Notes: generated by a model not told the origin, from the letters alone. 64,000 nucleotides of DNA from a virus (IMGVR_UViG_3300021255_000128:1-64000), one strand, 5' to 3'; positions 9,721-40,620 are shown, counted from the first letter of the stretch. Translations and numbers: made by a program.

Positions 9721-9839
9721 TTTTTAACTATCTTTGTGTATTAAAAATAAGTTTAATTTGAAAATGATTTGGTATGAAACAATGAAAAAATTTAGAAGAA
9801 TTAAAACAATGAGTTAGTGAATGCGATACAATCGCAGAA

Positions 9840-10781
9840 TTGTGTAGAAAATTAGAATTACAACCAAAAGGGGGTAATTATAATACTGTAAAAGCAATTA
9901 TTGAAGAAAACGGATTAGATATTTCTCATTTTAAAGGAAAGCATTCAGTTGTAAGAAAAAAGGGCATTTCTAGAATTAATTTATCTGATGTTTTAGAGGG
10001 AAACGTTGTATATGGTAATTCTAACGCACTTAAGGAAAGATTAATTAAAACAGAAGTAAAAGAAAGAAAGTGTGAGTGCTGTGGAAATACAATGTGATTA
10101 GGTCTACCAATTCCATTAGAACTCCATCATAAAAATGGAGATCATTATGATAATCACTTACAAAATTTAGAGTTACTTTGTCCTAACTGTCATGCACTTA
10201 CAGATTCATATCGTGGTAGAAAAATAGATAAAGAACTAGAAGATATAACAGAAGATGTTCAAGAATCCATAAATAAGTTAAAGGAAAAAGAACGTATTAG
10301 AGCTGAAGAAGTTTATAAGAATCATCTAAAAAATGGTGATATTGCAAAACCAAAAGCTACAATGAAAATCAAAAAACCTAAGTATTGTGAATATTGTGGT
10401 AAAGAAATTATCGGTAGAGGATCTAAATATTGCTCACACGAATGTGCATCAAATGCTGCTAAACAAAATATTGTATATGACGCAGATACATTATTAGAAC
10501 AAAGTAAAACTGTACAATCATTAATAGCATTAGCTAAATTATACAATATTACAGATAATGCTCTTAAAAAACATCTTGTTCGATTAAATATTTATGATGA
10601 AATTCGTGCAAATTTTAAATCTAAAACGAAAACTGTTTTGCAATTTGATTCTGATAACAATTTTATAAAAGAATGGGTCTCTGCAAAAGAAGCAGCAGAA
10701 GAGTTAAATCTTCAAAAAAGTAAAATTTTAGCTACGTGCAGAGGTGAACAAAAATCATCTGGTGGATTTGTTTGAAAATAT
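9840..10781 (+). CDS. HNH homing endonuclease with in-frame TGA read as Trp
   Basis: ORFs 9840..10097 and 10362..10775 share a frame and are separated only by TGA. No other stop lies between them. Contains HHKNG...LLCPNCH (HNH), C-terminal CxxC and DNA-binding-like modules. Confidence 0.75.
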
Positions 10782-10789
10782 AAAGAATA

Positions 10790-14688: not shown

Positions 14689-15253
14689 ATGATATGGTTA
14701 GTATGTGGAGTAATAATTTTAATTATTGGATTAATAATTAATTATTATCGCTGTTATATTGAAAAATAATGGAACCTTATGAAATATTAGCGCTTATTCT
14801 CGGTTTAATTGTTTGTATCGGATTAGATAGAGTTTATCGTTTATTTAAAGATATTAAAGAAAACGGAATATTAAACCAAATAGAATATACAATAACTGAT
14901 GATAATATTCAGAATATTGTTGGAATTGTATTAACAGAATTAGAAAAGAAGAAAAATGTTAACAATGCAACAGAGGAGAAGTTACAATCTCCAGATTCTT
15001 AATGCATTACATGGCATTGTAGAAACATATCCAGATCTTAGATTTGGACAGATAATAGAGTGCTTTGCTAAAGATAAAGATATTGATTTCTTTAATGAAG
15101 AACCCGATTCTATTTATACTCGAATTATAAATAAATTAAATGAAACCAGATATTAAAGATCCAGATGTCATTGGATGGCAGGTAATTAATATGATGTTTC
15201 CTCCTGATGATCAACCAAATCTTGCTGAAATTGATGATCAAGAGGAAAATAAT

Positions 15254-15328
15254 GGGAGCGTAGCGTAGTTGGTTTAGCGCATCTGACTTACATTCAGAGG
15301 GTCACGTGTTCGAATCACGTCGTTCCCA
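15254..15328 (+). tRNA. tRNA-Val (anticodon TAC)
   Basis: Acceptor GGGAGCG/CGTTCCC (one G-U), D GCGT/GCGC, anticodon stem TCTGA/TCAGA with loop CTTACAT, T ACGTG-TTCGAAT-CACGT. Confidence 0.8.
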
Positions 15329-15480
15329 CAAAATTATTTTAATCATGAAAGAAAAAATATATGCTTTAGTTGCTCAAGGAGTTTTAACTAAAGAACAAGC
15401 TGATGCTGTATGGGATGTAATATGGCATTATGACCAAGATGATGAAGAAATATTAATTTCATTATCAGAATGTATATAAT

Positions 15481-15672
15481 ATGGAAGATAAAGAATTTTC
15501 TTTTGATACTAATATTATTTTAGCATCTTTTATTATCCTATTAGTTGCAAAACTTGTAGGATGGATTAGTTGGTCTTGGTGGTGGATATTTGCTCCATTT
15601 TGGCTTCTAGCTTTAATTTCTATTATTATTGTAGTTGTTCACAAATTCATCTTTTTTATTAAAAATAAATGA
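15481..15672 (+). CDS. small Trp-rich membrane protein
   Basis: WISWSWWWIF motif. Its TGA stop overlaps the ATG of the next paralogue (ATGA). Confidence 0.45.
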   Translation: MEDKEFSFDTNIILASFIILLVAKLVGWISWSWWWIFAPFWLLALISIIIVVVHKFIFFIKNK

Positions 15673-15833
15673 ATTTTGGTTTATGTGATATATTAGTTTT
15701 AATATTTATAATATTAAGATTATGTAATATTATTGACTGGGCATGGTATTGGATAATATCTCCATATTGGATATATTATTTTTTAGTATTACTGTCTGGT
15801 GCAATTAAAGCTATCTTTGACTGGTTTAAATAA
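15669..15833 (+). CDS. small Trp-rich membrane protein (paralogue of 15481)
   Basis: WAWYWIISPYW motif. Below the track cutoff. Confidence 0.4.
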   Translation: MNFGLCDILVLIFIILRLCNIIDWAWYWIISPYWIYYFLVLLSGAIKAIFDWFK

Positions 15834-16260
15834 AATTTCCATTGTATTTTTATTAAAGTACATGTTCCAAATTGTTAAAATTATGCAATCCTACGAACGT
15901 AGAATGAAACGTGGTACTCTTGGTGCAAAGCACAAGACTACCAAAAATCGTAAAGGTCAGCAGTATCGTATGCAGCTGATTACAATGTCCAATGTAGCTT
16001 CTGATGCAAATCAGAAACTTAACAAAACTCTATTCCACTATAATCCCGATTTTTAATATGGAAAAGCTTTATGGACTTTATTGTGTGATTTCTAACAAGA
16101 CTGTTAGAAGGAACGAAAAGAAATATAAGCGTTTCAAAAAGGATGGTGTTCCTGGAACTCTTGTAAAGACCAATCGTGGTTATTTTATCGATGGAAGAGA
16201 AGTCGATAAGAAATCCGTAGATACTTTCTTTGCTTTGTATAAAGCAAAGTAAATAATATT

Positions 16261-16375
16261 TGGGCAGTCGTCTAATGGTTAGGACACGTAAGTTTAGTAA
16301 TGATTCATTACTTACAATCTCGTTAACTGTTATCCTGTGGAGATCGTGATTTAGGTTCGAATCCTAGCTGCCCGA
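16261..16375 (+). ncRNA. tRNA-like gene with oversized central region (~115 nt)
   Basis: Good acceptor (TGGGCAG/CTGCCCG), D arm (GTCT-AATGGTTA-GGAC) and T arm (TTAGG-TTCGAAT-CCTAG). Between them lie two 5-bp stems, each enclosing 18 nt (GTAAG..CTTAC and ATCTC..GAGAT), instead of a 7-nt anticodon loop. Confidence 0.4.
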
Positions 16376-16623
16376 CTAATTTTAAAACAAATAATTATGA
16401 TTATATTTATTACAATAATATTACTTTTAATAGCGTGGCTATTATTATATATCGCATTATATCCAAGAGTCGGATATACTTATAAAGATGATTATCAGAA
16501 TTTAGTTAGAATAACTAATGTAAATGGATTTATTGTTACACTTGTTTACATTTTAGATGATGGACAAGAAGTAACAAGTCCTCAAAACTGGGATCTAATT
16601 GAATTTATAAAAACTTTTAGTCT

Positions 16624-17340
16624 ATGGAAGACATATTAATATGTCCTGATGTTCATTGTCGTAACTTCTATAAGCCTGTTTTAGAAATTAAAGATAAATA
16701 TATTATATTTCTTGGAGATTATCTTGATCCTTATCCTCAGGAAGGTTTTTCTTTTGAGAATGGATTAGCTAATCTTGAAGAGATTATTGATTTTAAAAAG
16801 CAAAGTCCTGATAGAGTTACATTGTTATTAGGAAATCACGATTTTAACGCATTATGGAAAATGAACTGGGCTTCTAGGCATAACTATAAGTTTCAGAACG
16901 ATTCTCATGTACTGTTTGAAGATAATTTAGATCTATTCGAACCCTATAAAGTCATAGGAAATATTTTATTTACTCATGCTGGAGTTTCTGAAGGATGGTA
17001 CAAAGAACATAATATTAGCAATATTATTGATTTCCTTGATAATCAGTGGAATTTATTCATTAATGGACCATTAGGTCCTTTTGAAGAATCATATCTTCCA
17101 ATTTTTGATTGTGGTCGTTCTAGAGGAGGATATGCTCCTTATGGAGGTATTTTCTGGCATGATGAATATGAATCGTATTGGACCAATCCAATAGATTATA
17201 CCCAGATCTATGGACATACGCAATTAGAAAGACCTGGAAAGATTGTAAACTATGTACAAGAAGGTAAACCAATGTATTGTTGTGATTCCAGAGCTATATT
17301 TGAATATAAAAATAATCAATTAACACGATATGAAAATTAA
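16624..17340 (+). CDS. calcineurin-like metallophosphoesterase
   Basis: PDVHC, GDYLD and GNHD motifs. Confidence 0.7.
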   Translation: MEDILICPDVHCRNFYKPVLEIKDKYIIFLGDYLDPYPQEGFSFENGLANLEEIIDFKKQSPDRVTLLLGNHDFNALWKMNWASRHNYKFQNDSHVLFEDNLDLFEPYKVIGNILFTHAGVSEGWYKEHNISNIIDFLDNQWNLFINGPLGPFEESYLPIFDCGRSRGGYAPYGGIFWHDEYESYWTNPIDYTQIYGHTQLERPGKIVNYVQEGKPMYCCDSRAIFEYKNNQLTRYEN

Positions 17341-17755
17341 TTTTACAAAAGAACACCTCGCTCAACTCAAGGCAAATATTGCTGAGTTAGTTCTTAATGG
17401 AACTATTATTACGGGTCCTTATGGACAGAATTATGATATTTTTAATATCGTAAATACGCTTTCTATTGCGTCTCTTCGTACAATTTCTGGATTTCTTCAG
17501 AAGAAGAAAGCAAGTCTTTCTGCTGATGACGAATGGGTAGAAAATCCTCATAAAGCAGAAGTTGAAGAACTCACGTTTATCACTGATACAATCTCTCTTG
17601 TTATAGGCTATAAGCTTAAGAATATTGAGATTGAAGACAATCGTCGTGAGAAAGCTCGTCTTGAGAAACAGCTTAATGAGCTTAAGGAATCTCAGAAGAG
17701 TCCTGCAGAACTCATTGCTGAACTCGAGGCAAAGATCACTGCAATTGATGCATAA
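17330..17755 (+). CDS. coiled-coil protein
   Basis: C-terminal heptad-like charged repeats. Confidence 0.45.
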   Translation: MKINFTKEHLAQLKANIAELVLNGTIITGPYGQNYDIFNIVNTLSIASLRTISGFLQKKKASLSADDEWVENPHKAEVEELTFITDTISLVIGYKLKNIEIEDNRREKARLEKQLNELKESQKSPAELIAELEAKITAIDA

Positions 17756-17785
17756 TATTTATTGTAGATACATTTAATGTAACTT

Positions 17786-19606
17786 ATGGTACAAGTAGAA
17801 TTTAATAAGAAGCAAGAAAATCCTTTCTATAAGCTTCAACATTGTCTTTCTATCTTCCAAGGAACTTCAATTACTGAAGGTTTACTTGATCGAGCCTGGC
17901 TTGAGGTTAGAGATGACAAAATAAAGAAAGAGATGTTTTATTCTCTTCTGTTTTCTATTGGAGATATTACCAATCGAGAGCATAATATCTTCCATAATAA
18001 GAAGATAGATTCTGGTGGTCAGGCAAGACGTTCAGAATTCTTTACTATTATGAATTGGATGATTAAAACAGATTACGAACAATTCAAGAAATTCCTTTTT
18101 GCAGGATTGTTTGATGAATATACTTGTTTTGATCATCTTTTCAAGAATAGAGTTCAAACCGCTCCAAAGACAAATCGAATAATTGCTGTTTATTCGATGC
18201 TTTCTAACGAGAAATATCGTCATGATCTTTCTGATTATGTGGTTAGCATTGTAAATGGCAAGAATCCATTTAAGAAGCAGCTTGTTGCAAAGTTTTTGAC
18301 GCTTCCTCGATTGGGCAAAAGAAGTAATCACAAGCAAATGATGGAGCCGACATTTAAGGCAATGAAGGATAAAGCATTGTTCTTAAAGGAAGTTTCTGAT
18401 AAGCTTGGATGGGAATATATCTTTACTAACAATTTCTGCAATTTTATTGGTTATCGTCACTGGAGAAAGGATTATAATTCTGATCTCGAGTCCGTTCTTT
18501 TCTCTACTGGAAAGATTAATGACTTTGATCAGGTAAGCTTTGTAGAATGGCTTGATAAACTTCCATCTCAGGCAAGATTCCGGGTTAAGAATCGTATATT
18601 CTATTCAAAGGATGCAAATGAAAACCTTAAGTGGAAGAAATTCCAGGATTGGTATACATCTTGGGAGAAATCTAAGGAATGTGCTCAAGCTGAACAGCGA
18701 GTTCTTCAGGAGAAGGTGAGACAGGGAATTGCTTCTATTGAAGATAAGGTCCGCCTAGAACAAGTAAAGAAAGAGGCAAAGGTTAATACTGGCGCTACTA
18801 ACTTTGATTCACTTTATCAGGAAATTCTTCGCGGAAATCCTGATAAATTGAAACTAGAAGCATTTGTTCAGAATAAGGTTAATCTTCCTTTCAATTTCTT
18901 AACTATTGTTGATGAGTCTGGTTCAATGCAGGGTGCACCATTCAATTTTGCAACATTCTTGGCTTCTGTACTTTTGTATAAGAATCCCGATGATATTGCG
19001 AGGAATTTGATTGGATTATTTGCTAATGAATCTAGATTTGTTTCAGCAATTGATAAAAGAGCATCAAGTATGCCTAATTCTTTCTGGACAAGAGCTACTG
19101 TAGCAGATATAGTTCCTGAACCATTTATTGTTCCAGAGATGAGTTTCTACGACAATTATCGGAGAATTTCAACATATCTCAGAACAATTTTTAGAAGTGG
19201 TGGAACTCATATTAATTCATTAGCTACAAGACTTAAAGAAATTTACTCAAGTAATCCTGAACTTATAGATGAACTTGCTAATTATCCTGTGTGGGTAATT
19301 TGTAGTGATGGAGACTTAAATAATAGTTTCTATGCTAGAGATTCAATTCTTGAACTTCAGCACGCTTGTAAGCAATACTTAGGTTTTGTTCCTTATCTTG
19401 TGATTATTGAGATTCAAAATTGGAATAACTATAATATCAATCATTTTGCAGATCTTGATCAGGTAATGTATATTCCTGGAAAGGTTGAACTGATTGAGCA
19501 AATGTTATCTAATTTTAGAGATATTGATGTCTTTGATGTCTATACTCCACTTCTCTCAATTTACCGAAGTAATAGATACGAATTAGTTAGAAATAATGTA
19601 ATTTAA
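17786..19606 (+). CDS. large vWA-domain protein
   Basis: MIDAS-like LTIVDESGSMQG. 606 aa. Confidence 0.55.
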   Translation: MVQVEFNKKQENPFYKLQHCLSIFQGTSITEGLLDRAWLEVRDDKIKKEMFYSLLFSIGDITNREHNIFHNKKIDSGGQARRSEFFTIMNWMIKTDYEQFKKFLFAGLFDEYTCFDHLFKNRVQTAPKTNRIIAVYSMLSNEKYRHDLSDYVVSIVNGKNPFKKQLVAKFLTLPRLGKRSNHKQMMEPTFKAMKDKALFLKEVSDKLGWEYIFTNNFCNFIGYRHWRKDYNSDLESVLFSTGKINDFDQVSFVEWLDKLPSQARFRVKNRIFYSKDANENLKWKKFQDWYTSWEKSKECAQAEQRVLQEKVRQGIASIEDKVRLEQVKKEAKVNTGATNFDSLYQEILRGNPDKLKLEAFVQNKVNLPFNFLTIVDESGSMQGAPFNFATFLASVLLYKNPDDIARNLIGLFANESRFVSAIDKRASSMPNSFWTRATVADIVPEPFIVPEMSFYDNYRRISTYLRTIFRSGGTHINSLATRLKEIYSSNPELIDELANYPVWVICSDGDLNNSFYARDSILELQHACKQYLGFVPYLVIIEIQNWNNYNINHFADLDQVMYIPGKVELIEQMLSNFRDIDVFDVYTPLLSIYRSNRYELVRNNVI

Positions 19607-19702
19607 TTTGCATTATTAAAAATTAATTTTTATCTTTGCAATCTTAATCCTCTGTTGTGTGATAATAGCAGAGGGTTCCATAAGACACTTACAACGTTTT
19701 AT

Positions 19703-19790
19703 AATTTTTTACACGAGTTCGAGTCTCGTATTGTTCACCATTTTTTCGAACGATTCGCCTAGTGGTTTTGGCAAAATTATAAGTGTCTTT
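19703..19790 (+). ncRNA. candidate permuted/split tRNA: 3' half (anticodon 3' strand, T arm, acceptor 3' strand, CCA) upstream of 5' half (acceptor 5' strand, D arm, anticodon 5' strand)
   Basis: 3' half: AATTT, ACGAG-TTCGAGT-CTCGT, ATTGTTC-A-CCA (19703-19740). After TTTTTT, the 5' half: GAACGAT-TC-GCC-TAGTGGTTTT-GGC-A-AAATT (19748-19778). The acceptor strands pair 7/7 (one G-U) and AAATT/AATTT pair 5/5. Confidence 0.4.
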
Positions 19791-19919
19791 TTATTTTTGA
19801 TTTAAGCCCTACTATTCCCTGGTTAATGTAAAAGATTATTCTTCACAAGCGCGCAGTCTAAGATTAATCATTTTAATCAAAGTAGTAGGTAGAAATATAA
19901 TATGTCACATACAATACTA

Positions 19920-19992
19920 ACTGTTTTAGCTCATTAGGTAGAGCGTCCGACTTATAATCAGAATGCAGTTGGTTCGATTCCAACAAACACTT
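19920..19992 (+). tRNA. tRNA-like, anticodon TAT (Ile-AUA type), imperfect
   Basis: D GCTC/GAGC and T GTTGG-TTCGATT-CCAAC are good. There is one C-C mismatch in the acceptor stem and one C-A in the anticodon stem. Loop is CTTATAA. Confidence 0.4.
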
Positions 19993-20318
19993 ATTTTGTG
20001 ACATAGACTTATAAAGGAGGGTGAGGGAGTGGCAAATCCCATCTATTGTAATGGGTCAGAAGTTGATCGCGGGTGACCGAATAATAAAGGATTAACGCCA
20101 TTGAACGATAGGAAAGTAGGTATGTAGCTACGATATAAAATGAATCCTACACTCACGGACTTCCGGGTTTCTTAAAGTCTTTCCTCCGGCTGATGAAATA
20201 AGACTTTTTAAGACCTTTCTTCCATTTTATATAAAATGTAACTTACAACTGTAAAACGTTCGCTGAATCGTATATCAGCTCCATGAAATTAGTATTACTT
20301 TTAAGTTACATTTAAAAT

Positions 20319-20390
20319 TGAGGCGTCATATAAAGGTTAATATACAGGATTTTGGTTCCTGGAATGTTGGTTCGATTCCAGCCGCCTCAA
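20319..20390 (+). tRNA. tRNA-Gln (anticodon TTG)
   Basis: Acceptor TGAGGCG/CGCCTCA, D ATAT/ATAT, anticodon stem CAGGA/TCCTG with loop TTTTGGT, T GTTGG-TTCGATT-CCAGC. Confidence 0.7.
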
Positions 20391-20398
20391 CTAAACAT

Positions 20399-20577
20399 AG
20401 CGGGATGATAGCAGTGGTAGCTAGACAGTCTCAATACAGTTTAACTCACTGTAACGAGTTAGTCTAATAGGTGCAAGTAGTGGACACCGGTGAATGGGTA
20501 ATTTGCCGAGCGTAGGTGCAAGTCCTACATTAGACTCTAAGCTGTAGGTCCCTGGTTCGATCCCAGGTCCCGCTACC
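20399..20577 (+). ncRNA. tRNA-like gene with ~100-nt central insertion and encoded CCA
   Basis: Acceptor AGCGGGA/TCCCGCT-A-CCA, D arm TAGC-AGTGGTA-GCTA, T arm CCTGG-TTCGATC-CCAGG. The middle contains ACAGT[18 nt]ACTGT and a long helix AGTCTAATAGG/CCTACATTAGACT. Confidence 0.4.
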
Positions 20578-20791
20578 ATTATGATACTTATAATACTATA
20601 TTAAAACAATAATCTTTTAAATTATGTAGTTGAAACAAGTATCATTGAAACTTAATATTTTAATGTGAAACAAAGTATCTAAAGACGTTTAGAGAAACGA
20701 AGTAACCGGGTTTGGCTACAACCACACTGGAAGAAACCAAAAAGCACAGTGTTTAAAGAGGTACCTGGGAACAGAAACCCTCTTTATTTAT

Positions 20792-20865
20792 GGGCCAGTA
20801 GCTCCAATTGGTAGAGCGCTAGATTTGCATTCTAGTTGTTGTGGGTTCGAATCCCATCCGGTCCA
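20792..20865 (+). tRNA. tRNA-Ala (anticodon TGC)
   Basis: G3-U70 pair present. Anticodon stem CTAGA/TCTAG with loop TTTGCAT. T GTGGG-TTCGAAT-CCCAT. Confidence 0.75.
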
Positions 20866-20869
20866 CAAT

Positions 20870-20943
20870 GGAGGTATGGTTTGAATGGTTACAATGCCGG
20901 CTTGTCACGCCGTGCGGTACGGGTTCGAATCCCGTTATCTCCG
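20870..20943 (+). tRNA. tRNA-Asp (anticodon GTC)
   Basis: Acceptor GGAGGTA/TATCTCC. Anticodon loop TTGTCAC. T ACGGG-TTCGAAT-CCCGT. Confidence 0.7.
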
Positions 20944-20950
20944 CTGGAAA

Positions 20951-21025
20951 GCGTTCATGGCGCAATTGGTTTAGCGCAACAGATTTTTAATCTGTGGGTT
21001 TCGGGTTCAAGTCCCGATGAACGCA
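20951..21025 (+). tRNA. tRNA-Lys (anticodon TTT)
   Basis: Acceptor GCGTTCA/TGAACGC, D GCGC-AATTGGTTTA-GCGC, anticodon stem ACAGA/TCTGT with loop TTTTTAA, T TCGGG-TTCAAGT-CCCGA. Confidence 0.85.
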
Positions 21026-21049
21026 CTATTTAATAAATAATAAAACAAA

Positions 21050-21535
21050 ATGAAGAATTTTTCTATTAAAATTGGTTCTCGCGAACACTGGATTAGCCGT
21101 TCTATGGCAGTTGTTGGATTTATAATCTGTGTTACTCGTAATACGATTTATGTTCTTGCAAATAAACGTGGTAATGGTGCACCTGATTATCAAGGTTTAT
21201 GGAATTGTCCTTGTGGATACCTTGATTATAACGAAACCTTAAAAGAAGGATGTGCACGAGAAATATACGAGGAAACTAACTTTAAAATTGATCCAGAACT
21301 ATTAAATCTTTGGAGTATTAATGATGATCCAAAAGATAGTTCTCGTCAAAATGTTACTTTTAGGTTTTTTGCTAAAGTTAATGATTCTGCATTAATTCAA
21401 CATATTTATGCTAAAGGACAAGAACAAGATGAAGTAGCAGATTGTATGTGGATCAATGTAAATGATATTGATAAGTATGAATGGGCATTTAATCATAAAC
21501 AACTTATCAAAGATTTACTATGTTATTTTAAATAA
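21050..21535 (+). CDS. NUDIX hydrolase
   Basis: Nudix box GYLDYNETLKEGCAREIYEETN (G.5E.7REUxEExGU pattern). Confidence 0.75.
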   Translation: MKNFSIKIGSREHWISRSMAVVGFIICVTRNTIYVLANKRGNGAPDYQGLWNCPCGYLDYNETLKEGCAREIYEETNFKIDPELLNLWSINDDPKDSSRQNVTFRFFAKVNDSALIQHIYAKGQEQDEVADCMWINVNDIDKYEWAFNHKQLIKDLLCYFK

Positions 21536-21542
21536 AAGTATA

Positions 21543-21749
21543 ATGATTACAATAATTATAATAATATTACTTGCAGTAATTGCCTGTATCGTAACATATA
21601 AAGAGGGTGAACTTCATGAACTTCATAAAACAAGAGCTGCTTTCGAGCATTATCTTGAAGCGCATGAATCCCTTAAAGAAGTTCTTGGTCCCGGTATAGA
21701 AGCTGCAAAAAATCTTGTCGATCAACTGGAAGAAGACGATAAAATATAA
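21543..21749 (+). CDS. small membrane protein
   Basis: Hydrophobic N-terminus. Start refined from track ORF 21462..21749. Confidence 0.4.
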   Translation: MITIIIIILLAVIACIVTYKEGELHELHKTRAAFEHYLEAHESLKEVLGPGIEAAKNLVDQLEEDDKI

Positions 21750-22335
21750 TATCTTTGGGCCTGACTAGAATTGAACGATATGAGATTGATAGAATAACAT
21801 GTACGAGCTGAACAACTCGTTTATCAACTATTCAAACAAATAAATTCCAAAAATCTTATTTCCGAAATTCGTAACAAGGTTATGGATTTCTGCAATAGTA
21901 TTGTAAATTTCTTTGCTCCTGAAGCAAGTTTTGCAATAGCTATCGCCTAGTTTCTTAATTCTATAAAAATTAAGTGGTGGAGATGGGGTGTCAAACTCCG
22001 TTAAATAATGCTGGGAACTCGCTAAACTGCTACCAGGGAAGATGAATGATGAGAATAGCCTTTTTTGCTGAGTATATTTATACTATCGTTTTACAAGGAA
22101 TGTTAAAACCAGCTAAACATGTAAATAATTATTCTATTGATACGTAGACGTGACTGAAGTGCGAATCTTCACAGGTCCACTATATTGGGATGTCGTATAA
22201 AGGTAATTACGATTGGCTGTTAACCAATTTATCACAGTTCAAGTCTGTGCGTCCCAGCAAATATGGAGGTATAGCAAAGATGGTCTATGCGGTGGACTGA
22301 AAATAAAAAGATTTTATTTATCGATTAATTAAAAA
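21750..22335 (+). ncRNA. possible group-I-like structured RNA upstream of an HNH gene
   Basis: GTCCAC / GTGGAC potential P7 (ACAGGTCCACTATA ... AAGATGGTCTATGCGGTGGAC). Weak. Confidence 0.25.
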
Positions 22336-22338
22336 ATT

Positions 22339-22809
22339 ATGCCAAACGCTTATTATAAATTAAAAACTAAAGAAGAACTTCAAGATTTGCTTGACAAATG
22401 TAATACACTTGCAGAATTTATGCGGGAATTAGGTTATTCTGGAAATAGAGGAAATTCAATTAATGGTTTAAAATTGTACTTAGACAAATTGGGTTTGGAT
22501 TATTCAAAATACTCTGTTCATAGTATTTATGCACATGAACATCCCAAATGAAAACTTGAAGACCTATTAACAGAAAACTGTTCTTATTCAAATCATACTA
22601 GATTAAAGGAACGACTTATTAAAGCAAATCTTTTGGAAACAAAATGTGCGATTTGTGGTATTAGTGAGTGATTAGGACAACCATTAGTTTTACAATTAGA
22701 TCATATTAATGGTAATAATAGAGATAATCGAATAGAAAATTTAAGATTACTTTGTCCTAATTGTCATTCTCAGACTGAAACATTTTGTCATAAAAATAGA
22801 AATATTTAA
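22339..22809 (+). CDS. HNH homing endonuclease with in-frame TGA codons
   Basis: Track ORF 22339..22551 ends in TGA and the frame continues to TAA at 22807. CAICGISE(W)LGQP...LDHINGNNRDNRIENLRLLCPNCH. N-terminal domain resembles that of the 9840 gene. Confidence 0.7.
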
Positions 22810-22859
22810 TTTATAATAATATATGATTCACTGCCTCCACAATTTTTAATATTTAAAAT

Positions 22860-23192
22860 ATGACTCTAAAATTATATAAGAAACTTACAAGATGGTACTT
22901 TAAATATCATAATGTTGAGTATTTTATCAATATGCCAAATACATTAAATACTTTAGAAGAAATAATGAATAAGACTAAAGTATTATATGTTAAACTTAAT
23001 TTTAATGATTCGTTTTGTGAGAATATTATAGGATTACACAAATGGGACGATTTATATTATACAAATTATCCTTTACATTTACTAATATTAATGTTTAATA
23101 AAGGATGTGAAGACGAACGTTTTTATGTTCCTTATGATTTAAGAGATTTACTTTCAAAATGTAATAGTATAATAATAGAAGCTGTTCATTAA
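22860..23192 (+). CDS. hypothetical protein
   Basis: 110-aa ORF. Confidence 0.4.
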   Translation: MTLKLYKKLTRWYFKYHNVEYFINMPNTLNTLEEIMNKTKVLYVKLNFNDSFCENIIGLHKWDDLYYTNYPLHLLILMFNKGCEDERFYVPYDLRDLLSKCNSIIIEAVH

Positions 23193-23286
23193 AGCTTAAA
23201 GTTATCTATATTTTACCTATATAGAGACAGTATGACATAGAGGTAAACATGTGATCATACAAGGCCCGTTAGCTTTGCGGGTGTGA

Positions 23287-23359
23287 GGATTCTTAGCTCA
23301 GTTGGTAGAGCACTTGACTGAAGATCAAGGTGTGCGTAGTTCGATTCTGCGAGAATCCG
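23287..23359 (+). tRNA. tRNA-Phe (anticodon GAA)
   Basis: Acceptor GGATTCT/AGAATCC, D GCTC-AGTTGGTA-GAGC, anticodon stem CTTGA/TCAAG with loop CTGAAGA. Confidence 0.85.
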
Positions 23360-23375
23360 CAAAAATTAGAAGATT

Positions 23376-23467
23376 GGGAATGTAACGGCGCAGGTCTGTA
23401 AAATCTGTCCTTTATAATCTGCCGTATTGGTTTAAGGTAAAGCGGTTCGAATCCACTCATTCCCACA
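23376..23467 (+). ncRNA. atypical tRNA-like element with Tyr-type anticodon hairpin (loop CTGTAAA) but no normal D arm
   Basis: Acceptor GGGAATG/CATTCCC-A, T AGCGG-TTCGAAT-CCACT (one mismatch), hairpin CAGGT-CTGTAAA-ATCTG directly after pos 9. An extra ~33 nt precedes the T arm. Confidence 0.35.
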
Positions 23468-23487
23468 AACAATTAAATTATTTATGA

Positions 23488-23889
23488 ATGACTAATAAGC
23501 AACTAGGAAGAATTGGATTAAGTATGGCCATAAACTATTTTACAATTGCCGGTTATACTGTTTCTTTACCAATTAATGATACGCAATGATATGATTTAAT
23601 TATAGAAAAAGATGGAGTTATCGAAACAGTTCAATGTAAATGTACAGATACTGATGAGGGAAGTATTGATTTAAGAAGTAAAGGAGGAACAAATGGAGGT
23701 GTTTATGACAATGTTATAGAACATGAACAATTAAATTGATTATTTTGTGTTGATAAAAATAGAAAATGCTTTTTAATTCCGGTTAAAGATTTAATTGGTA
23801 ATAATGTCCACCATTCCATTCGTTTAAGATATGAAAAAACTGTAAACGGACAGGGTTTTCAAACATTTCCTTATTTATTAAATATTTAA
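23488..23889 (+). CDS. putative PD-(D/E)XK-type endonuclease with two in-frame TGA codons
   Basis: WYDLIIEKDG...ETVQCK reads as a D-E-K motif. Sits between tRNA-like elements. Trp fits at both TGA positions. Confidence 0.45.
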
Positions 23890-23907
23890 TAAATCCTCAA
23901 CAGGACT

Positions 23908-23932
23908 GGGAGTTCGATTCTCTCTCTTCCCA
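23908..23932 (+). other. orphan tRNA 3' fragment (T arm plus acceptor strand)
   Basis: GGGAG-TTCGATT-CTCTC-TCTTCCC-A directly after the endonuclease ORF. No matching 5' half was found. Confidence 0.35.
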
Positions 23933-23941
23933 CAGATAATT

Positions 23942-24028
23942 GGAGAGTTGGCCGAGTGGTTGATGGCACCAGTCTTGAAAACTGGCTTACTCTTAGGGGT
24001 AACGGGGGTTCAAATCCCTCACTCTCCG
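23942..24028 (+). tRNA. tRNA-Ser (anticodon TGA), type II
   Basis: Acceptor GGAGAGT/ACTCTCC-G, D GCC-GAGTGGTTGAT-GGC, anticodon stem CCAGT/ACTGG with loop CTTGAAA, long variable arm, T GGGGG-TTCAAAT-CCCTC. Confidence 0.85.
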
Positions 24029-24047
24029 CAAAAATAATTTAATATGT

Positions 24048-24314
24048 ATGAAAGGAATAGATTTAATTAGAGAAGAGAGAGAAAAACAAATTGTTAAACA
24101 CAATTATGATAGAAATCATGACAACTCTCACAGAAATAAAGAACTTTTATTTGGGGCTCTTGCCTATTTAAAATCTTCAATTTATGGTACTGAAGTAGGC
24201 CGTAAAGATTGGCCTTTTGAAAATAAATATTGGCATCCTGAAGGATACATTGACTGCTTGAAAAAAGCAGGTGCATTTATTGCTGCTGAATTAGATAGAT
24301 TAGATTGTAATTAA
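24048..24314 (+). CDS. hypothetical protein
   Basis: 88-aa ORF. Confidence 0.4.
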   Translation: MKGIDLIREEREKQIVKHNYDRNHDNSHRNKELLFGALAYLKSSIYGTEVGRKDWPFENKYWHPEGYIDCLKKAGAFIAAELDRLDCN

Positions 24315-24315
24315 T

Positions 24316-25431
24316 ATGAAACAACCTACAAGAACTTTACCACAAACTGTAAAGTTATTTCCTAAATCTTGGTCAGAAGTTCTTCATGACAATATTCCTG
24401 ATAATTTTTATAATTTATCTTGGGAACAAAAATATAAAAATTGTAAATCATATAATAGTACATATTATTGTTCCAATAAAGATGGTAGAATTTTCTTTGG
24501 ATTGCGAACAAAAACAATATGTAGAGCTGGAACCAAATTTTATCCAAAAATTGATTGGGCCGATACCATTGTAATAGATGGAAGGAAAATATCGATTCAC
24601 AAATTAACTTTTGCTGGAATATCTAAGTTTGTATCTATTATTGGAATAAATTTAGAATTTGCTCACAATCTTCCTGTAAATTTAAGAAGGTACTTATTCA
24701 AAGAATGTGTTATTGCAGACATTCTTCGTAAAAAAGTCTATAATGAAGAAACTTTATGTAAATGTGTTCTTTCCAAAATATATCATTTAAAGGGATTTGA
24801 TTGGAAACTATTTTTCCATTATAACAACTGTATAAATTATTTATCAATTCCTGATCTTCAAGCGTTTACAAAAGATTTAGCAAAAAGTATAAGTGTTCTA
24901 GTTCATGAAGGGGAATATTATAATCCAGCTTACAGAGATTTATTGGATTGTGCTGTTCAATTAAATGAAATTGTAGATTTTACTTGGTCTCAAAAGAGAA
25001 TTAAAGAAGAACATCAACGGCAAATCAACGAGTTAAATCGTAAAGAAATTGAAGCAAAAGAACAAGTTCCTGTATTTGATGTATGTTTAGATGAACCACA
25101 TATTCATATGTTAAATACGGAAAAAGAAGTATTTCTTGAAGGAACTAATATGCACCATTGTCTATATAAGTGTTATTGGAATCGAATCAAATCTAAAGAT
25201 TATATAGCTTTCCATATGTCTGTTCCGCAAGATTGTACATTTAGTTTTAAAGTACTTAATAATAAAGTTGTATTAGATCAAGCATTTCTTGCCTACGATA
25301 GACAAATTTCAGACATAACTAAAGCAGCAATTGTAGATTTCCAGAACAGAAATGAAGCAGATTTATACAAATTACTTACTGGAGAATACAAAGCTTGTTG
25401 GCCACCTGAAGAAATAGATTTACCTTACTGA
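24316..25431 (+). CDS. hypothetical protein
   Basis: 371-aa ORF. Ends in TGA, with TAA nine codons further on overlapping the next start. Confidence 0.5.
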   Translation: MKQPTRTLPQTVKLFPKSWSEVLHDNIPDNFYNLSWEQKYKNCKSYNSTYYCSNKDGRIFFGLRTKTICRAGTKFYPKIDWADTIVIDGRKISIHKLTFAGISKFVSIIGINLEFAHNLPVNLRRYLFKECVIADILRKKVYNEETLCKCVLSKIYHLKGFDWKLFFHYNNCINYLSIPDLQAFTKDLAKSISVLVHEGEYYNPAYRDLLDCAVQLNEIVDFTWSQKRIKEEHQRQINELNRKEIEAKEQVPVFDVCLDEPHIHMLNTEKEVFLEGTNMHHCLYKCYWNRIKSKDYIAFHMSVPQDCTFSFKVLNNKVVLDQAFLAYDRQISDITKAAIVDFQNRNEADLYKLLTGEYKACWPPEEIDLPY

Positions 25432-25447
25432 ACATTAGAAATTAACC

Positions 25448-25711
25448 ATGATTAATGCAGAACAAGCGCATCAAATGGCCCAGATGAGAAATCGTGATTT
25501 ATGGGTTAATGATGAAATAAACAAAATATTTAAATTAATTGAAGAATCTGCCAAAAAAGGTTTACATGAATGTAAAATTAATATAACTTTTAAAGGTGCA
25601 GAAGATCTTTACGAAGTATCTACTATGCTTTGCATGATTGCAAATGTATTAGAAGATAATGGGTTTGAGCATTATGTTACCTTGGAAGGTGAATTAGTCA
25701 TTCAATGGTAA
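25448..25711 (+). CDS. hypothetical protein
   Basis: 87-aa ORF. Confidence 0.45.
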   Translation: MINAEQAHQMAQMRNRDLWVNDEINKIFKLIEESAKKGLHECKINITFKGAEDLYEVSTMLCMIANVLEDNGFEHYVTLEGELVIQW

Positions 25712-25723
25712 TATAAACGGAAT

Positions 25724-25799
25724 AGGGTAGTGCGGTAGTTGGTCACCGGCCACATTTGGGATGTGGACATTCACGCAGGTTCGAGTCCTGTCTACCCTA
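25724..25799 (+). tRNA. tRNA-Pro (anticodon TGG)
   Basis: Acceptor AGGGTAG/CTACCCT, D CGGT/ACCG, anticodon stem CCACA/TGTGG with loop TTTGGGA, T GCAGG-TTCGAGT-CCTGT. Confidence 0.7.
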
Positions 25800-25937
25800 C
25801 AGTAAATGCACAATTTTTGGCGCTTTACCAGAGAAATCTAAGGTAGAAGACGTTTTAAACGGGTAGGCTAACCGTCCTGCGAGGGTCGAAATTGTATTAA
25901 ATTTAAAGTTAATGATACTTACAATGCTATAAAACAA

Positions 25938-26008
25938 TATAAATTCGTCTAGTGGTTGGACACAATTTTTGGGTAATTGCAACATAGGTTCGATTCCTAT
26001 ATTTATTA
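25938..26008 (+). tRNA. second tRNA-like with anticodon TGG; weak all-AT acceptor stem
   Basis: D GTC-TAGTGGTTG-GAC, anticodon stem CAATT/AATTG with loop TTTGGGT, T ATAGG-TTCGATT-CCTAT. Mismatch at acceptor pair 1-72. Confidence 0.35.
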
Positions 26009-26025
26009 GTTAAGTATCATATAAT

Positions 26026-26097
26026 AGAGCTATCATCTAATGGTTAGGATCCCACGCTGATAACGTGGACATTCTGGTTCAAATCCAGGTGGCTCTA
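26026..26097 (+). tRNA. tRNA-Ile (anticodon GAT)
   Basis: Acceptor AGAGCTA/TGGCTCT, anticodon stem CCACG/CGTGG with loop CTGATAA, T TCTGG-TTCAAAT-CCAGG. Confidence 0.7.
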
Positions 26098-26150
26098 CAA
26101 TTATAAAGCATATTCTGAAGAAAAAAACTCCATTTGTAATTTAAAATTAT

Positions 26151-26222
26151 GCCCCATTAGTATAAAGGTTATTATAAGTGATTTGTAATCTCTAGATGAT
26201 CGTTCGATTCGGTCATGGGGCT
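26151..26222 (+). tRNA. tRNA-Thr (anticodon TGT)
   Basis: Acceptor GCCCCAT/ATGGGGC perfect. Anticodon stem AGTGA/TCTCT (one U-U) with loop TTTGTAA. T GATCG-TTCGATT-CGGTC. Confidence 0.6.
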
Positions 26223-26411
26223 CAAAAAATTATGGTTTATATTAAACGAAATAAAGATAAAAGATTCAATGCCAAATGGATTGTTGTAAATAGTAAGCTT
26301 AAAAGTAGAGATTTAGTTGAAACTTTTGGTGATGCTATTCGATTCTTTCTTTGGCATTTAGGTGTTCCTGCAAGAATTATATTTAAAAAAATCTACTCTG
26401 CAACACAATAA
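26196..26411 (+). CDS. hypothetical small protein (overlaps the 3' end of tRNA-Thr; start uncertain)
   Basis: 71-aa ORF from the track. Confidence 0.3.
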   Translation: MIVRFGHGAQKIMVYIKRNKDKRFNAKWIVVNSKLKSRDLVETFGDAIRFFLWHLGVPARIIFKKIYSATQ

Positions 26412-27263: not shown

Positions 27264-27270
27264 AAGTATT

Positions 27271-27513: not shown

Positions 27514-27541
27514 ACTACAGCACATTTAAATTAATTAATTT

Positions 27542-40407: not shown

Positions 40408-40464
40408 ATTTGGAAAATTAAAATATTTTTCGTAACTTTGTTTTATGATACTTATAATCCTAAT

Positions 40465-40544
40465 TAATTGTTGGTTCGAATCCAACTTCTGCTTTATCTT
40501 AGCTGAATGGCGAAATTGGTTTACGCGAATGACTTGAAATCATT
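40465..40544 (+). ncRNA. second candidate permuted/split tRNA (T arm plus acceptor 3' strand, then acceptor 5' strand, D arm and anticodon arm with loop CTTGAAA)
   Basis: GTTGG-TTCGAAT-CCAAC-TTCTGCT-T (40470-40494), a 6-nt spacer, then AGCTGAA-TG-GCG-AAATTGGTTTA-CGC-G-AATGA-CTTGAAA-TCATT. The acceptor strands pair 6/7. No T arm follows the 5' half and no 5' half precedes the 3' half. Confidence 0.35.
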
Positions 40545-40620
40545 TTTTATTAATAAGTATCATTTAAAAATAACTGTTTGTCTCAACAGTAAAATGAGAT
40601 GTTAGCATTCATAGTGTTCC

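What the first reader, a model, noticed from the sequence alone, without database searches (positions are those of the whole stretch)
16261..16375. tRNA-like genes with large central insertions (16261-16375, 20399-20577) and an atypical Tyr-like element (23376-23467)
All three have convincing acceptor and T arms and GG-containing D loops. The region that should be a 17-nt anticodon arm is replaced by 60-130 nt. In two of them a 5-bp stem encloses exactly 18 nt (GTAAG..CTTAC; ACAGT..ACTGT). The insertions are too short for group I introns and bacteria lack BHB splicing. They could be novel small tRNA introns, tRNA-derived regulatory RNAs or decoys.
Basis: seen in the sequence. Interest (0 to 1): 0.6.

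Follow-up and report, generated by a model that had tools for sequence, protein, structure and literature searches.

The report
Interrupted tRNA genes in a phage
The three odd "tRNA-like" stretches are real phage tRNA genes whose anticodon arms are present but broken up in three different ways, and one of them belongs to a previously undescribed, conserved class of short structured interruptions (with circularly rearranged sister genes) in a family of large rumen/gut phages.

Summary
All three elements exist, but the anticodon arm is not "replaced" in any of them.

- **E1 (16261-16375):** a tRNA with loop CUGUGGA (anticodon GUG). A 43-nt structured intervening sequence cuts the 5' strand of its anticodon stem after ACG. 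At least 13 related phage loci carry the same interruption, with compensatory changes in the tRNA stems. The insert is built from two complementary signals (AGTNNN / NNNACT-TACAA) that bracket small RNA units throughout this phage family. These signals also lie inside 35 interrupted tRNA genes, at D-loop, anticodon-stem, 31/32 and variable-region positions. They also sit at the ends of about 26 circularly permuted tRNA genes.
- **E2 (20399-20578):** tRNA-Met(CAU) carrying a recent 104-nt insertion between A35 and U36, made of a hairpin plus a nested tRNA-like unit. The closest relative lacks the insertion.
- **E3 (23376-23465):** a tRNA-Tyr(GUA) variant with an intact anticodon arm but no D arm. 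It came in with a PD-(D/E)XK homing-endonuclease cassette that displaced the resident tRNA-Tyr, whose 3' remnant survives at 23894-23932.

None is a group I or bulge-helix-bulge intron. How, or whether, the inserts are removed is unknown. The evidence favours structure at the RNA level.

The parts
16261..16288 (+). E1 exon 1: acceptor 5' strand TGGGCAG, D arm GTCT-AATGGTTA-GGAC, and the outer anticodon-stem strand ACG
   Evidence: Rfam tRNA hit. Family alignment shows covarying acceptor and D stems. Coordinates.
16289..16331 (+). E1 intervening sequence (43 nt). Layout: UA, P2 5' strand AGTT (16291-94), P1 hairpin AGTAATG-ATT-CATTACT (16296-16312), motif TACTTACAA (16309-17), P2 3' strand AACT (16325-28), GTT
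   Evidence: Removing it gives an ARAGORN tRNA-His(GUG) of 73 nt. P1 covaries. P2 is supported only at offsets 2 and 3: 32/40 pairs against at most 27 at any other offset. The motif is family-wide.
16332..16375 (+). E1 exon 2: inner anticodon stem ATC, loop CTGTGGA (anticodon GTG, 16337-39), GATCGT, variable loop, T arm TTAGG-TTCGAAT-CCTAG, acceptor 3' strand CTGCCCG, and discriminator A
20399..20433 (+). E2 exon 1: tRNA-Met 5' part ending in anticodon-loop bases CTCA (C34, A35)
   Evidence: Alignment with the L001 and L002 tRNA-Met genes. 34/34 identity to L001.
20434..20537 (+). E2 insertion (104 nt): hairpin TACAGT-TTAACTC-ACTGTA (20435-53), linker ACGAGTTA, nested tRNA-like unit (20462-20536) with a 7-bp acceptor and T arm GTAGG-TGCAAGT-CCTAC, then C
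   Evidence: Absent from L001 and L002. The nested unit scores 21.8 bits on Rfam tRNA and ARAGORN calls it only at a relaxed threshold. This T-arm type is common in phage tRNAs.
20538..20578 (+). E2 exon 2: TAA of the anticodon loop (U36), GCTGT, T arm, acceptor 3' strand, and ACCA
23376..23465 (+). E3: tRNA-Tyr(GUA)-like gene. Acceptor GGGAATG/CATTCCC, no D arm, intact anticodon arm CAGGT-CTGTAAA-ATCTG (23391-23407), a 34-nt variable region, and T arm AGCGG-TTCGAAT-CCACT
   Evidence: Rfam alignment. The orthologue in L167 has a compensatory T-stem change (A-T to G-C) and a change in GCCGT that remains G.U-compatible. No single deletion gives a canonical tRNA.
23488..23889 (+). PD-(D/E)XK homing-endonuclease ORF (133 aa, two in-frame TGA codons read as Trp), directly downstream of E3
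   Evidence: Pfam PF11645, 58.9 bits against a cut-off of 26.1. Homologues lie next to or inside tRNA-Tyr genes in 10 IMG/VR contigs.
23894..23932 (+). 3' remnant of the displaced resident tRNA-Tyr: variable arm, T arm and acceptor 3' strand TCTTCCC
   Evidence: Identical to the 3' part of the intact L001 tRNA-Tyr. An equivalent remnant follows the ORF in L167.
19684..19792 (+). Related context: a circularly permuted tRNA-like unit. Order: 5' signal GACACTTACAA, T arm, acceptor 3' strand + ACCA, linker, acceptor 5' strand + D arm, 3' signal AAGTGTC + T run
   Evidence: It uses the same two signals as the E1 insert.
40447..40561 (+). Related context: a second permuted tRNA unit. Order: GATACTTATAA, T arm, TTCTGCT, linker, AGCTGAA, D arm, anticodon arm AATGA-CTTGAAA-TCATT, AAGTATC

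Best explanation
The three elements are genuine tRNA-derived genes of a large (about 170 kb) bacteriophage. Each is disrupted in a different way.

**E1.** E1 is a tRNA with a Gln-type body and anticodon GUG; relatives carry UUG. A 43-nt intervening sequence cuts the 5' strand of its anticodon stem after ACG.
- The insert folds into a 4-bp helix (P2) that sits 2 and 3 nt from the two junctions, plus an apical hairpin (P1).
- The 3' strand of P1 runs into the family-wide motif ACT-TACAA.
- The two P1 strands are the same pair of complementary 'unit-end' signals that bracket ordinary tRNA genes in this phage family. They also bracket circularly permuted tRNA genes.
- Shown: the interruption is old, conserved, and constrained as RNA structure.
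- Inferred: the precursor folds as a tRNA with an extra P2-P1 arm. That arm is then either excised and the exons joined, or cut open to leave a two-piece tRNA held together by its stems, as in two-piece tmRNA. The enzyme is unknown.

**E2.** E2 is tRNA-Met(CAU) that recently acquired a hairpin plus a nested tRNA-like unit inside its anticodon.
- It is either a freshly inactivated gene or depends on the same kind of processing.
- RNase P and 3' processing of the nested unit would split it into two halves (inferred).

**E3.** E3 is a tRNA-Tyr variant without a D arm, carried by a PD-(D/E)XK homing-endonuclease cassette. The cassette overwrote the 5' two-thirds of the resident tRNA-Tyr. E3 most likely serves as the cassette's own copy of the target gene (inferred).
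For: **Identity of the elements**
- Rfam tRNA scores E1 at 33.9 bits, above gathering.
- In-silico removal of 38-45 nt directly after ACG gives default ARAGORN tRNAs in 7 of 7 family members: His GUG, Gln UUG, and some with 8-nt loops.
- The restored arm ACGGC-TTTTGGT-GCCGT is identical to that of an ordinary uninterrupted phage tRNA-Gln in L217.

**Conservation of E1**
- Ten to 13 loci from phages sharing 45-82% identity in the neighbouring 606-aa protein.
- 10 of 23 pairs show compensatory changes.
- No uninterrupted near-identical copy exists in any fetched locus.

**Structure of the insert**
- P1 covaries.
- P2 pairs only at offsets 2 and 3: 32/40 pairs with 5/10 perfect, against at most 27 pairs and at most 2 perfect at any other offset. 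The pair types are AGTT/AACT, GTTA/TAAC, ATTA/TAAT and GCT/AGC.

**Family-wide signals**
- TAC[AT]TACAA occurs 181 times on the + strand against 10 on the - strand in 463 kb.
- 35 of 181 motif sites lie inside tRNA genes that become callable after deletion. Random sites give 0-3 of 181. The positions are listed.
- Rfam at gathering reports full-length tRNA matches of 106-133 nt.
- The permuted-unit scan gives 28 hits, against 0 on the reversed sequence and 0 on the opposite strand.
- The 5' and 3' signals covary unit by unit: 58/66, 48/59, 9/9 and 7/9.
- Helix mismatches are G.T 28 against A.C 7.

**E2:**

**E3:**

**A bacterial host is indicated** by tmRNA hits of 68.6 and 72.9 bits in relatives.
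Against: - There is no RNA evidence of any kind. Removal, cutting or joining is inferred only.
- No RNA ligase, RtcB or splicing-endonuclease gene was found among about 30 window ORFs scanned. Only 64 of about 170 kb was visible.
- The distances from P1 to the junctions vary (5-9 nt and 15-19 nt).
- Several family members have 8-nt anticodon loops, a U.U mismatch or bulged T stems. That argues against ordinary decoding.
- The 5' signal also precedes protein genes without a complementary partner. It may therefore be primarily a promoter, and the inserts DNA-level cassettes.
- The units compared share descent, so the counts are not independent.
- The E2 insert has no relatives anywhere. It may simply be a disruption.
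- ARAGORN does not call E3, and Rfam scores it below gathering.
Confidence: 0.6

Rival explanations
1. DNA-level cassette model. The hairpin plus ACTTACAA is a composite terminator/promoter (PeSL-like) or a recombination site that shuffles small gene cassettes. Interrupted and permuted tRNA genes would then be by-products of that shuffling and non-functional or decaying. E2 would be a plain insertional knock-out.
For: - The motif sits at a fixed short distance upstream of tRNAs (6-15 nt) and of ORF start codons (mostly 15-18 nt), on one strand only.
- ORF units lack the complementary 3' signal.
- 3' signals are followed by T runs.
- PeSL promoter-terminator stem-loops mediate cassette shuffling in T4-type phages (PMC4122927).
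- An interrupted gene and a permuted gene are circular permutations of one another, as expected from circular DNA intermediates.
- The E2 insert is absent from the nearest relative.
Against: - Interrupted genes persist across deep divergence, with compensatory changes in stems that span the interruption. No intact alleles were found.
- P2 is anchored to both junctions.
- The leader/trailer helix shows a 4:1 excess of G.T over A.C mismatches on the sense strand. That is expected for RNA pairing, not for a DNA site.
- Acceptor halves of permuted units covary.
Confidence: 0.2
2. Unspliced tRNA-like RNAs. The elements keep their inserts and do not decode. They would act as tRNA-shaped processing signals (RNase P / RNase Z punctuation of polycistronic transcripts), as protective end structures, or as decoys for host anticodon nucleases.
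For: - E1 lies between two ORFs, in a slot where relative L001 has a different minimal acceptor + T-arm element.
- A similar mini element lies at window 33255-33304.
- Several family members have 8-nt loops and bulged T stems.
- The phage already has ordinary tRNA-Gln and tRNA-His genes.
- Many of the disrupted types are GUN-anticodon tRNAs: His, Asn, Asp, Tyr.
Against: - Canonical 7-nt loops with U33 and the ordinary tRNA-Gln loop sequence are retained in most members.
- The restored arm equals that of a normal tRNA-Gln.
- A processing signal would not need a conserved anticodon stem-loop or D arm.
Confidence: 0.15
3. Known intron classes. The inserts would be degenerate group I introns or archaeal-type bulge-helix-bulge introns.
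For: - Group I introns do occupy bacterial tRNA anticodon loops, including in Patescibacteria (PMC13011429, listed).
- PD-(D/E)XK endonucleases of the E3-linked family (Pfam PF11645) include one that I recall as encoded in a group I intron of a cyanobacterial tRNA-fMet gene. This rests on my own knowledge.
Against: - The inserts are only 38-45 nt (E1 type) or 104 nt (E2).
- Rfam gives no group I or ribozyme hit at E<=10, and none at E<=0.01 in the ORF-bearing relatives.
- The inserts end in U or C, not G. The 5' exons end in G or A, not U.
- No helix-bulge-4 bp-bulge geometry can be drawn from the sequence.
- The host is bacterial, as shown by tmRNA.
Confidence: 0.03

Closest known systems
Disrupted tRNA genes of Archaea and algae: non-canonical-position introns, split tRNAs of Nanoarchaeum equitans and Caldivirga, permuted tRNAs of Cyanidioschyzon merolae and Thermofilum (PMC3218864, PMC4390854)
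   Same: - Interruptions occur at several positions: D loop, anticodon stem, 31/32 and the variable region.
- In permuted genes the 3' half precedes the 5' half.
- Complementary flanking sequences bring the exon ends together.
   Different: - These genes are in bacteriophages of bacteria.
- The motif is a 4-bp helix plus a hairpin ending in UACUUACAA, not a bulge-helix-bulge.
- No splicing endonuclease or ligase has been identified, and processing is unproven.
Two-piece (circularly permuted) tmRNA of Alphaproteobacteria and cyanobacteria (Rfam RF04321 and RF01849)
   Same: - It is a bacterial precedent for a permuted tRNA-like gene: T arm, acceptor 3' strand, CCA, linker, acceptor 5' strand.
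- Its product works as two base-paired pieces without ligation.
   Different: - The units here are full tRNAs with D and anticodon arms.
- Many isoacceptors are affected.
- The ends are marked by a covarying helix.
PeSL promoter-terminator stem-loops of T4-type phages (PMC4122927, PMC2839356)
   Same: Short stem-loops fused to a promoter-like motif. They are repeated between small units in a large phage genome and are associated with modular shuffling.
   Different: - PeSLs lie between genes, not inside tRNA genes.
- No complementarity across a unit and no anchoring to tRNA exon junctions have been described.
- Promoter activity was not tested here.
Group I introns in bacterial and phage tRNA genes
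   Same: They interrupt the anticodon region of tRNA genes in the bacterial world.
   Different: - They are at least five times longer.
- They have a defined catalytic core, a U.G pair at the 5' splice site and a terminal G.
- None of these features is present here.
Homing endonucleases at tRNA genes: the PF11645 PD-(D/E)XK family, and T4 SegB in the tRNA region (cited in PMC4122927)
   Same: The ORF next to E3 is a PF11645 member. It lies in a tRNA cluster beside a partial duplicate of its presumed target gene.
   Different: - The ORF is free-standing rather than intron-encoded in this window.
- The linked tRNA-Tyr copy lacks a D arm.

Membership tests
tRNA (Rfam RF00005) | Score at or above the curated gathering threshold (29 bits) over the full model | tested here: met
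   E1 scores 33.9 bits over model positions 1-71, with a 56-nt insert. This applies to E1 only.
tRNA (Rfam RF00005) | The same threshold, applied to E3 and E2 | tested here: not met
   E3 scores 26.8 bits with the D arm deleted. E2 as a whole gives no hit, and its nested unit scores 21.8 bits. E2 becomes an ARAGORN tRNA-Met only after the insert is removed.
Group I intron | Conserved catalytic core detectable by the Rfam model, and a length of roughly 200 nt or more | tested here: not met
   No group I hit at E<=10 in 15000-28000 or in the element sub-ranges. The inserts are 43 and 104 nt.
Group I intron | 5' exon ends in U (U.G pair) and the intron ends in G | tested here: not met
   E1 reads ...ACG|UA...GUU|A. 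E2 reads ...CUCA|AU...CUC|U.
Archaeal/eukaryal BHB intron | Two 3-nt bulges carrying the splice sites, on opposite strands and separated by a 4-bp helix that pairs intron with 3' exon | tested here: not met
   By inspection of E1 and 9 homologues, P2 pairs intron with intron. Both linkers (2 nt and 3 nt) lie at the same end of P2.
Archaeal/eukaryal BHB intron | A host or virus encoding a tRNA splicing endonuclease | tested here: inconclusive
   None was seen among about 30 window ORFs. tmRNA in relatives points to a bacterial host. Most of the genome was not visible.
Circularly permuted tRNA gene | The 3' half (T arm + acceptor 3' strand) lies upstream of the 5' half (acceptor 5' strand + D arm) on the same strand, with complementary acceptor strands | tested here: met
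   28 hits against 0 and 0 in the controls. Window units lie at 19684-19792 and 40447-40561. This concerns sister elements, not E1-E3 themselves.
Circularly permuted tRNA gene | Maturation through a circular or two-piece RNA to a functional tRNA | not testable with these tools
   Requires RNA data.
PeSL-type promoter/terminator cassette | A stem-loop directly followed by a repeated promoter motif between small units | tested here: inconclusive
   The hairpin plus a strand-specific motif at fixed distances from genes is present. The motif is unlike the published PeSL sequences, and promoter activity was not tested.
PD-(D/E)XK homing endonuclease (Pfam PF11645) | Profile match above the curated cut-off | tested here: met
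   ORF 23488-23889 scores 58.9 bits against a cut-off of 26.1.

The most novel reading that the evidence does not exclude
This phage family may mature tRNAs by an RNA-level cut-and-join pathway not known in bacteria or their viruses. In this reading a short P2-P1 helix motif (UA, 4 bp, hairpin, UACUUACAA, 4 bp, NNU) would mark where pieces are removed and exons joined. It would give cis-splicing of interrupted genes at many positions and circularisation or two-piece assembly of permuted genes. That is a functional analogue of the archaeal bulge-helix-bulge system, using different recognition rules and an unidentified enzyme or ribozyme.
Probability: 0.3. Interest if true: 0.92.

Novelty: new variant of a known kind. 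Interest (0 to 1): 0.75.

Why it matters
Interrupted, split and permuted tRNA genes are treated as hallmarks of Archaea and a few eukaryotes. In the bacterial world, only self-splicing group I introns and two-piece tmRNA are established.

This phage family appears to keep dozens of tRNA genes interrupted at non-canonical positions or circularly permuted. All are marked by one covarying helix motif. If confirmed, that would imply one of two things:
- a new RNA processing activity, whether splicing, trimming plus ligation, or a stable two-piece tRNA; or
- a new use of tRNA-shaped RNAs by phages.

There is also a practical consequence. Standard tRNA finders miss these genes, so the tRNA repertoires and recoding capacity of large gut and rumen phages are under-counted.

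Tried and rejected
- **Close relatives in deposited phage genomes.** A near-identity search of 16000-24000 found no match.
- **A shared T-arm 17-mer in the E2 insert.** It gave more than 119 IMG/VR hits. These turned out to be an ordinary, widespread phage T-arm variant (TGCAAGT loop), not relatives of the insert.
- **Relatives of the E2 insert.** An exact 22-mer from the insert found nothing.
- **Intron-less alleles.**
  - The spliced E1 junction 19-mer is absent from IMG/VR.
  - The spliced arm of the commoner subtype hit one ordinary tRNA-Gln and three coding regions.
- **Group I, BHB and known small ribozymes.** Rejected (and inspection).
- **Brute-force deletion with a relaxed ARAGORN threshold.** It was uninformative because too many spurious calls appeared. 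I replaced it with default or strict settings and random-site controls.
- **E3 as a singly interrupted tRNA.** No deletion of 0-45 nt gives a tRNA-Tyr.
- **Function of the conserved neighbouring 606-aa ORF.** No Pfam, PHROG or PDB match.
- **RNA ligase or repair genes.** None among the roughly 30 ORFs scanned. I found two metallophosphatases, a NUDIX hydrolase, several HNH endonucleases and others.
- **Host clue from bacterial genomes.** The hairpin pattern gave only chance or coding hits, for example a repeated gene in Cryptobacteroides MAGs.
- **Literature.** No paper on phage permuted or split tRNA genes was found in the searchable library.
- **Re-permutation of permuted units.** All 26 gave ARAGORN tRNAs. 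The search space was very large, so I treat this as weak evidence.

Full report
**Setting**

The window is AT-rich (32% GC) and gene-dense on the + strand.
- ARAGORN finds 19 tRNA genes. Rfam gives a tmRNA-like match at 21757-22182.
- Several endonuclease ORFs contain in-frame TGA codons, and there is a tRNA with anticodon UCA.
- Relatives found through the neighbouring 606-aa ORF are IMG/VR phage contigs of 167-183 kb and many rumen-type metagenome contigs.
- Two relatives carry tmRNA genes above the Rfam gathering score (68.6 and 72.9 bits), so the host is bacterial.

**E2 (20399-20578)**

This is the clearest case.
- In relative L001 (82% protein identity), tRNA-Gln is followed by an ordinary tRNA-Met(CAU).
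- The window has the same tRNA-Gln followed by the same tRNA-Met, with 104 extra nucleotides between A35 and U36 of the anticodon.
- The exons are 34/34 and 34/36 identical to L001.
- Deleting 20434-20537 gives a default ARAGORN tRNA-Met of 76 nt with an encoded CCA.
- The insert consists of:
  - a hairpin (TACAGT-TTAACTC-ACTGTA);
  - an 8-nt linker;
  - a 75-nt tRNA-shaped unit with a perfect 7-bp acceptor stem. Its T arm (loop TGCAAGT) is common in phage tRNAs, but its anticodon loop is not canonical.
- No relative of the insert was found.

**E3 (23376-23465)**

E3 occupies the slot after tRNA-Phe where L001 has a normal class II tRNA-Tyr.
- The Rfam model aligns E3 with an intact anticodon arm (CAGGU-CUGUAAA-AUCUG). 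It places 5 nt where the D arm should be and 30 extra nt in the variable region, for 26.8 bits, just below gathering.
- Immediately downstream lies a 133-aa ORF with two TGA codons. It matches the PD-(D/E)XK endonuclease family PF11645.
- After the ORF comes a 39-nt stretch identical to the 3' part of the L001 tRNA-Tyr (23894-23932).
- IMG/VR contig L167 has the same arrangement:
  - an E3 copy with a compensatory T-stem change and a G.U-compatible change in a possible long-range helix, ACGGC/GYCGT;
  - the ORF at 87% identity;
  - a different 3' tRNA-Tyr remnant.
- E3 plus the endonuclease gene is therefore a mobile cassette that overwrote the 5' part of the resident tRNA-Tyr.
- No single deletion turns E3 into a canonical tRNA.
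- A cloverleaf-like fold that uses the long-range helix lies within 2-3.5 kcal/mol of the minimum free energy.
- Whether E3 is a working tRNA-Tyr is open.

**E1 (16261-16375)**

Rfam tRNA scores E1 at 33.9 bits, with 56 nt in place of 13. Homologues exist in L002, L127, L128, L133, L134, L135, L137, L138, L141, L142 and L143.
- The acceptor and D stems covary (10 of 23 pairs with compensatory changes).
- Near the 3' end of the 'insert' every member has a loop of the form YU-(U/G)UG-G-N. The window has CTGTGGA.
- Deleting 38-45 nt directly after the invariant ACG restores a 5-6 bp anticodon stem:
  - window: ACG+ATC / GATCGT;
  - L135: ACG+GAA / TTCCGT;
  - L134: ACG+GC / GCCGT.
- After that deletion ARAGORN calls all seven tested members at default settings: His GUG, Gln UUG, or 8-nt-loop variants.
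- The restored arm of the commonest subtype is identical to the arm of an ordinary phage tRNA-Gln in L217.
- All members of this lineage are interrupted. The same phages also carry a normal tRNA-Gln with the same D arm and loop.

**Structure of the E1 intervening sequence**

- It begins with UA and ends with U.
- It contains a hairpin (P1) whose stem covaries: AGTAATG/CATTACT, AGTATC/GATACT, GTATC/GATAC, and AGTATC/GGTACT with a G.U pair.
- A 4-bp helix (P2) joins the four bases that start 2 nt after the 5' junction to the four bases that end 3 nt before the 3' junction.
- That offset pair gives 32 of 40 possible pairs, with 5 of 10 sequences perfect. Every other offset combination gives at most 27 pairs and at most 2 perfect.
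- The pair types differ between lineages: AGTT/AACT, GTTA/TAAC, ATTA/TAAT and GCT/AGC.
- Both junctions are therefore held at the base of a small two-helix arm.
- This is not bulge-helix-bulge geometry, and there is no group I or ribozyme signal.

**The insert is made of family-wide signals**

The 3' strand of P1 runs into TACTTACAA.
- That motif occurs 181 times on the + strand and 10 times on the - strand in 463 kb of family sequence. Its extended consensus is TAAGTTACTTACAATATTA.
- It lies 6-15 nt upstream of 29 ordinary tRNA genes and mostly 15-18 nt upstream of ORF start codons.
- Downstream of small RNA units there is a complementary signal, AGTNNN, followed by a T run.
- The variable bases of the two signals covary unit by unit, even between neighbouring units of one genome:
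  - GATACT with AGTATC: 58/66;
  - GTTACT with AGTAAC: 48/59;
  - GACACT with AGTGTC: 9/9;
  - TTTACT with AGTAAA: 7/9.
- Mismatches in the 9-bp leader/trailer helix are G.T 28 times and A.C 7 times. This is the asymmetry expected for RNA pairing on the sense strand.
- ORF units have the 5' signal but not the partner (2 of 21).

**A wider class**

- At 35 of 181 motif sites, deleting a 20-77 nt segment that contains the motif creates a junction-spanning tRNA where none was called. Random sites give 0-3 of 181.
- The interruptions are:
  - D loop: Asn GUU, a GCU variant, Pro/Gln, Asp;
  - 5' strand of the anticodon stem: the E1 type;
  - position 31/32: Pro GGG;
  - variable region: Leu UAG.
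- Rfam at gathering threshold itself reports full-length tRNA matches of 106-133 nt in these loci.
- A second clade of IMG/VR phages shows the same pattern, including tRNA-Met genes interrupted in the D loop.
- None of the interrupted genes has an uninterrupted near-identical copy in the fetched data.
- I also scanned for the order T arm, acceptor 3' strand, 1-15 nt linker (often NCCA plus U's), complementary acceptor 5' strand, D arm.
  - It gave 28 hits on the + strand, none on the reversed sequence and none on the - strand.
  - These are circularly permuted tRNA genes, with the 5' signal in front and the 3' signal behind.
  - The window has two of them, at 19684-19792 and 40447-40561.
- Permuted Thr(UGU) units break at the same ACG|UA point as E1.
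- In the 40447-40561 unit the leader and trailer pair to form what would be the long variable arm of a Ser-type tRNA. Cleavage at the acceptor linker alone could therefore yield a two-piece tRNA.

**Interpretation**

Shown:
- E1, E2 and E3 are tRNA-derived genes that contain normal anticodon loops.
- E1 belongs to an old, conserved class whose insert has junction-anchored secondary structure.
- The strands of that structure are the covarying end signals of the family's small RNA units.

Inferred:
- The precursor folds as a tRNA with an extra arm.
- That arm is excised with exon joining, or it is opened to give a two-piece molecule.

Against a simple decoding role:
- Some members have 8-nt loops, U.U mismatches or bulged T stems.
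- No ligase or splicing nuclease was found in the visible 64 kb.

The main rival is a DNA-level promoter/terminator cassette model of the PeSL type. It explains the promoter-like placement and the recent E2 event. It does not explain the compensatory changes, the junction-anchored P2, or the G.U bias.

**Novelty**

- Searches of the available literature found archaeal and algal split and permuted tRNAs, bacterial group I tRNA introns, two-piece tmRNA and PeSLs.
- They found nothing describing short non-group-I interruptions or permuted tRNA genes in phages.
- I file the finding as a new variant of a known kind (disrupted tRNA genes).
- It carries a substantial chance of pointing to a new processing mechanism.

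Noticed in passing
window 19684-19792: A circularly permuted tRNA-like unit. Its order is: GACACTTACAA, an 18-nt leader, T arm ACGAG-TTCGAGT-CTCGT, ATTGTTC+ACCA, a U-rich linker, GAACGAT, D arm, then AAGTGTC plus a T run. L001, L002, L127 and L128 have orthologues. No clear anticodon arm.
   Followed up: partly
window 40447-40561: A second permuted tRNA unit, with a complete anticodon arm (AATGA-CTTGAAA-TCATT, anticodon UGA). Its leader and trailer pair (GATACTT/AAGTATC and ATTAAT/ATTAAT) where a class II variable arm would sit.
   Followed up: partly
window 33255-33304; L001 8511-8590: Minimal tRNA-like elements made only of an 8-bp acceptor stem, a short spacer and a canonical T arm. The L001 copy sits in the same intergenic slot as E1.
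   Followed up: no
window 21757-22182: A tmRNA-like gene (Rfam 33 bits, below gathering) with acceptor GGGCCTG/CAGGTCC and T arm TGAAG-TGCGAAT-CTTCA. Related phages score 68.6 and 72.9 bits.
   Followed up: partly
window 9774-10787, 22339-22806, 23488-23889, 26553-27260, 40700-41560, and many ORFs in 45000-64000; tRNA at 41581-41657: In-frame TGA codons are concentrated in homing-endonuclease ORFs and in the 45-64 kb block. A tRNA with anticodon UCA is present. Reading TGA as Trp lengthens the + strand ORFs from 9.4 to 13.5 thousand codons.
   Followed up: partly
IMG/VR loci L004-L122: The T arm GTAGG-TGCAAGT-CCTAC (G instead of U at position 55) occurs in more than 119 viral contigs in otherwise ordinary tRNAs. 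Several of those tRNAs have very large D-loop or variable-region expansions.
   Followed up: no
L168, L170, L171, L176 around 1400-2000: The PD-(D/E)XK endonuclease ORF lies inside a Tyr-type tRNA gene: 5' part upstream, T arm and acceptor 3' strand downstream. Rfam finds no group I intron there at E<=0.01.
   Followed up: partly
L172 1440-1500 and 1929-2012: The mirror image of the E3 arrangement. A 5' fragment of tRNA-Tyr, truncated in the anticodon loop, is followed by the endonuclease ORF and then a complete tRNA-Tyr.
   Followed up: no
L168 525-1132: A ROOL RNA (274 bits) inside a phage tRNA cluster, next to the endonuclease-bearing tRNA.
   Followed up: no
window 17786-19606 and orthologues: A conserved 606-aa ORF embedded in the tRNA arrays of all relatives. 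It has a DxSxS motif (VDESGSM) in its C-terminal half. It has no Pfam, PHROG or PDB sequence match.
   Followed up: partly
window 19994-20318 and 20579-20791: Two non-coding stretches of 200-320 nt between tRNA genes, with no Rfam match above noise (the best is a 17.5-bit alpha_tmRNA hit at 20654-20785). Unexplained.
   Followed up: no
L002 18889-18952 and 18992-19109: Weak YrlA (Y RNA-like) matches of 39 and 27 bits, both below gathering, next to tRNA-Arg and a tRNA with anticodon UUA.
   Followed up: no
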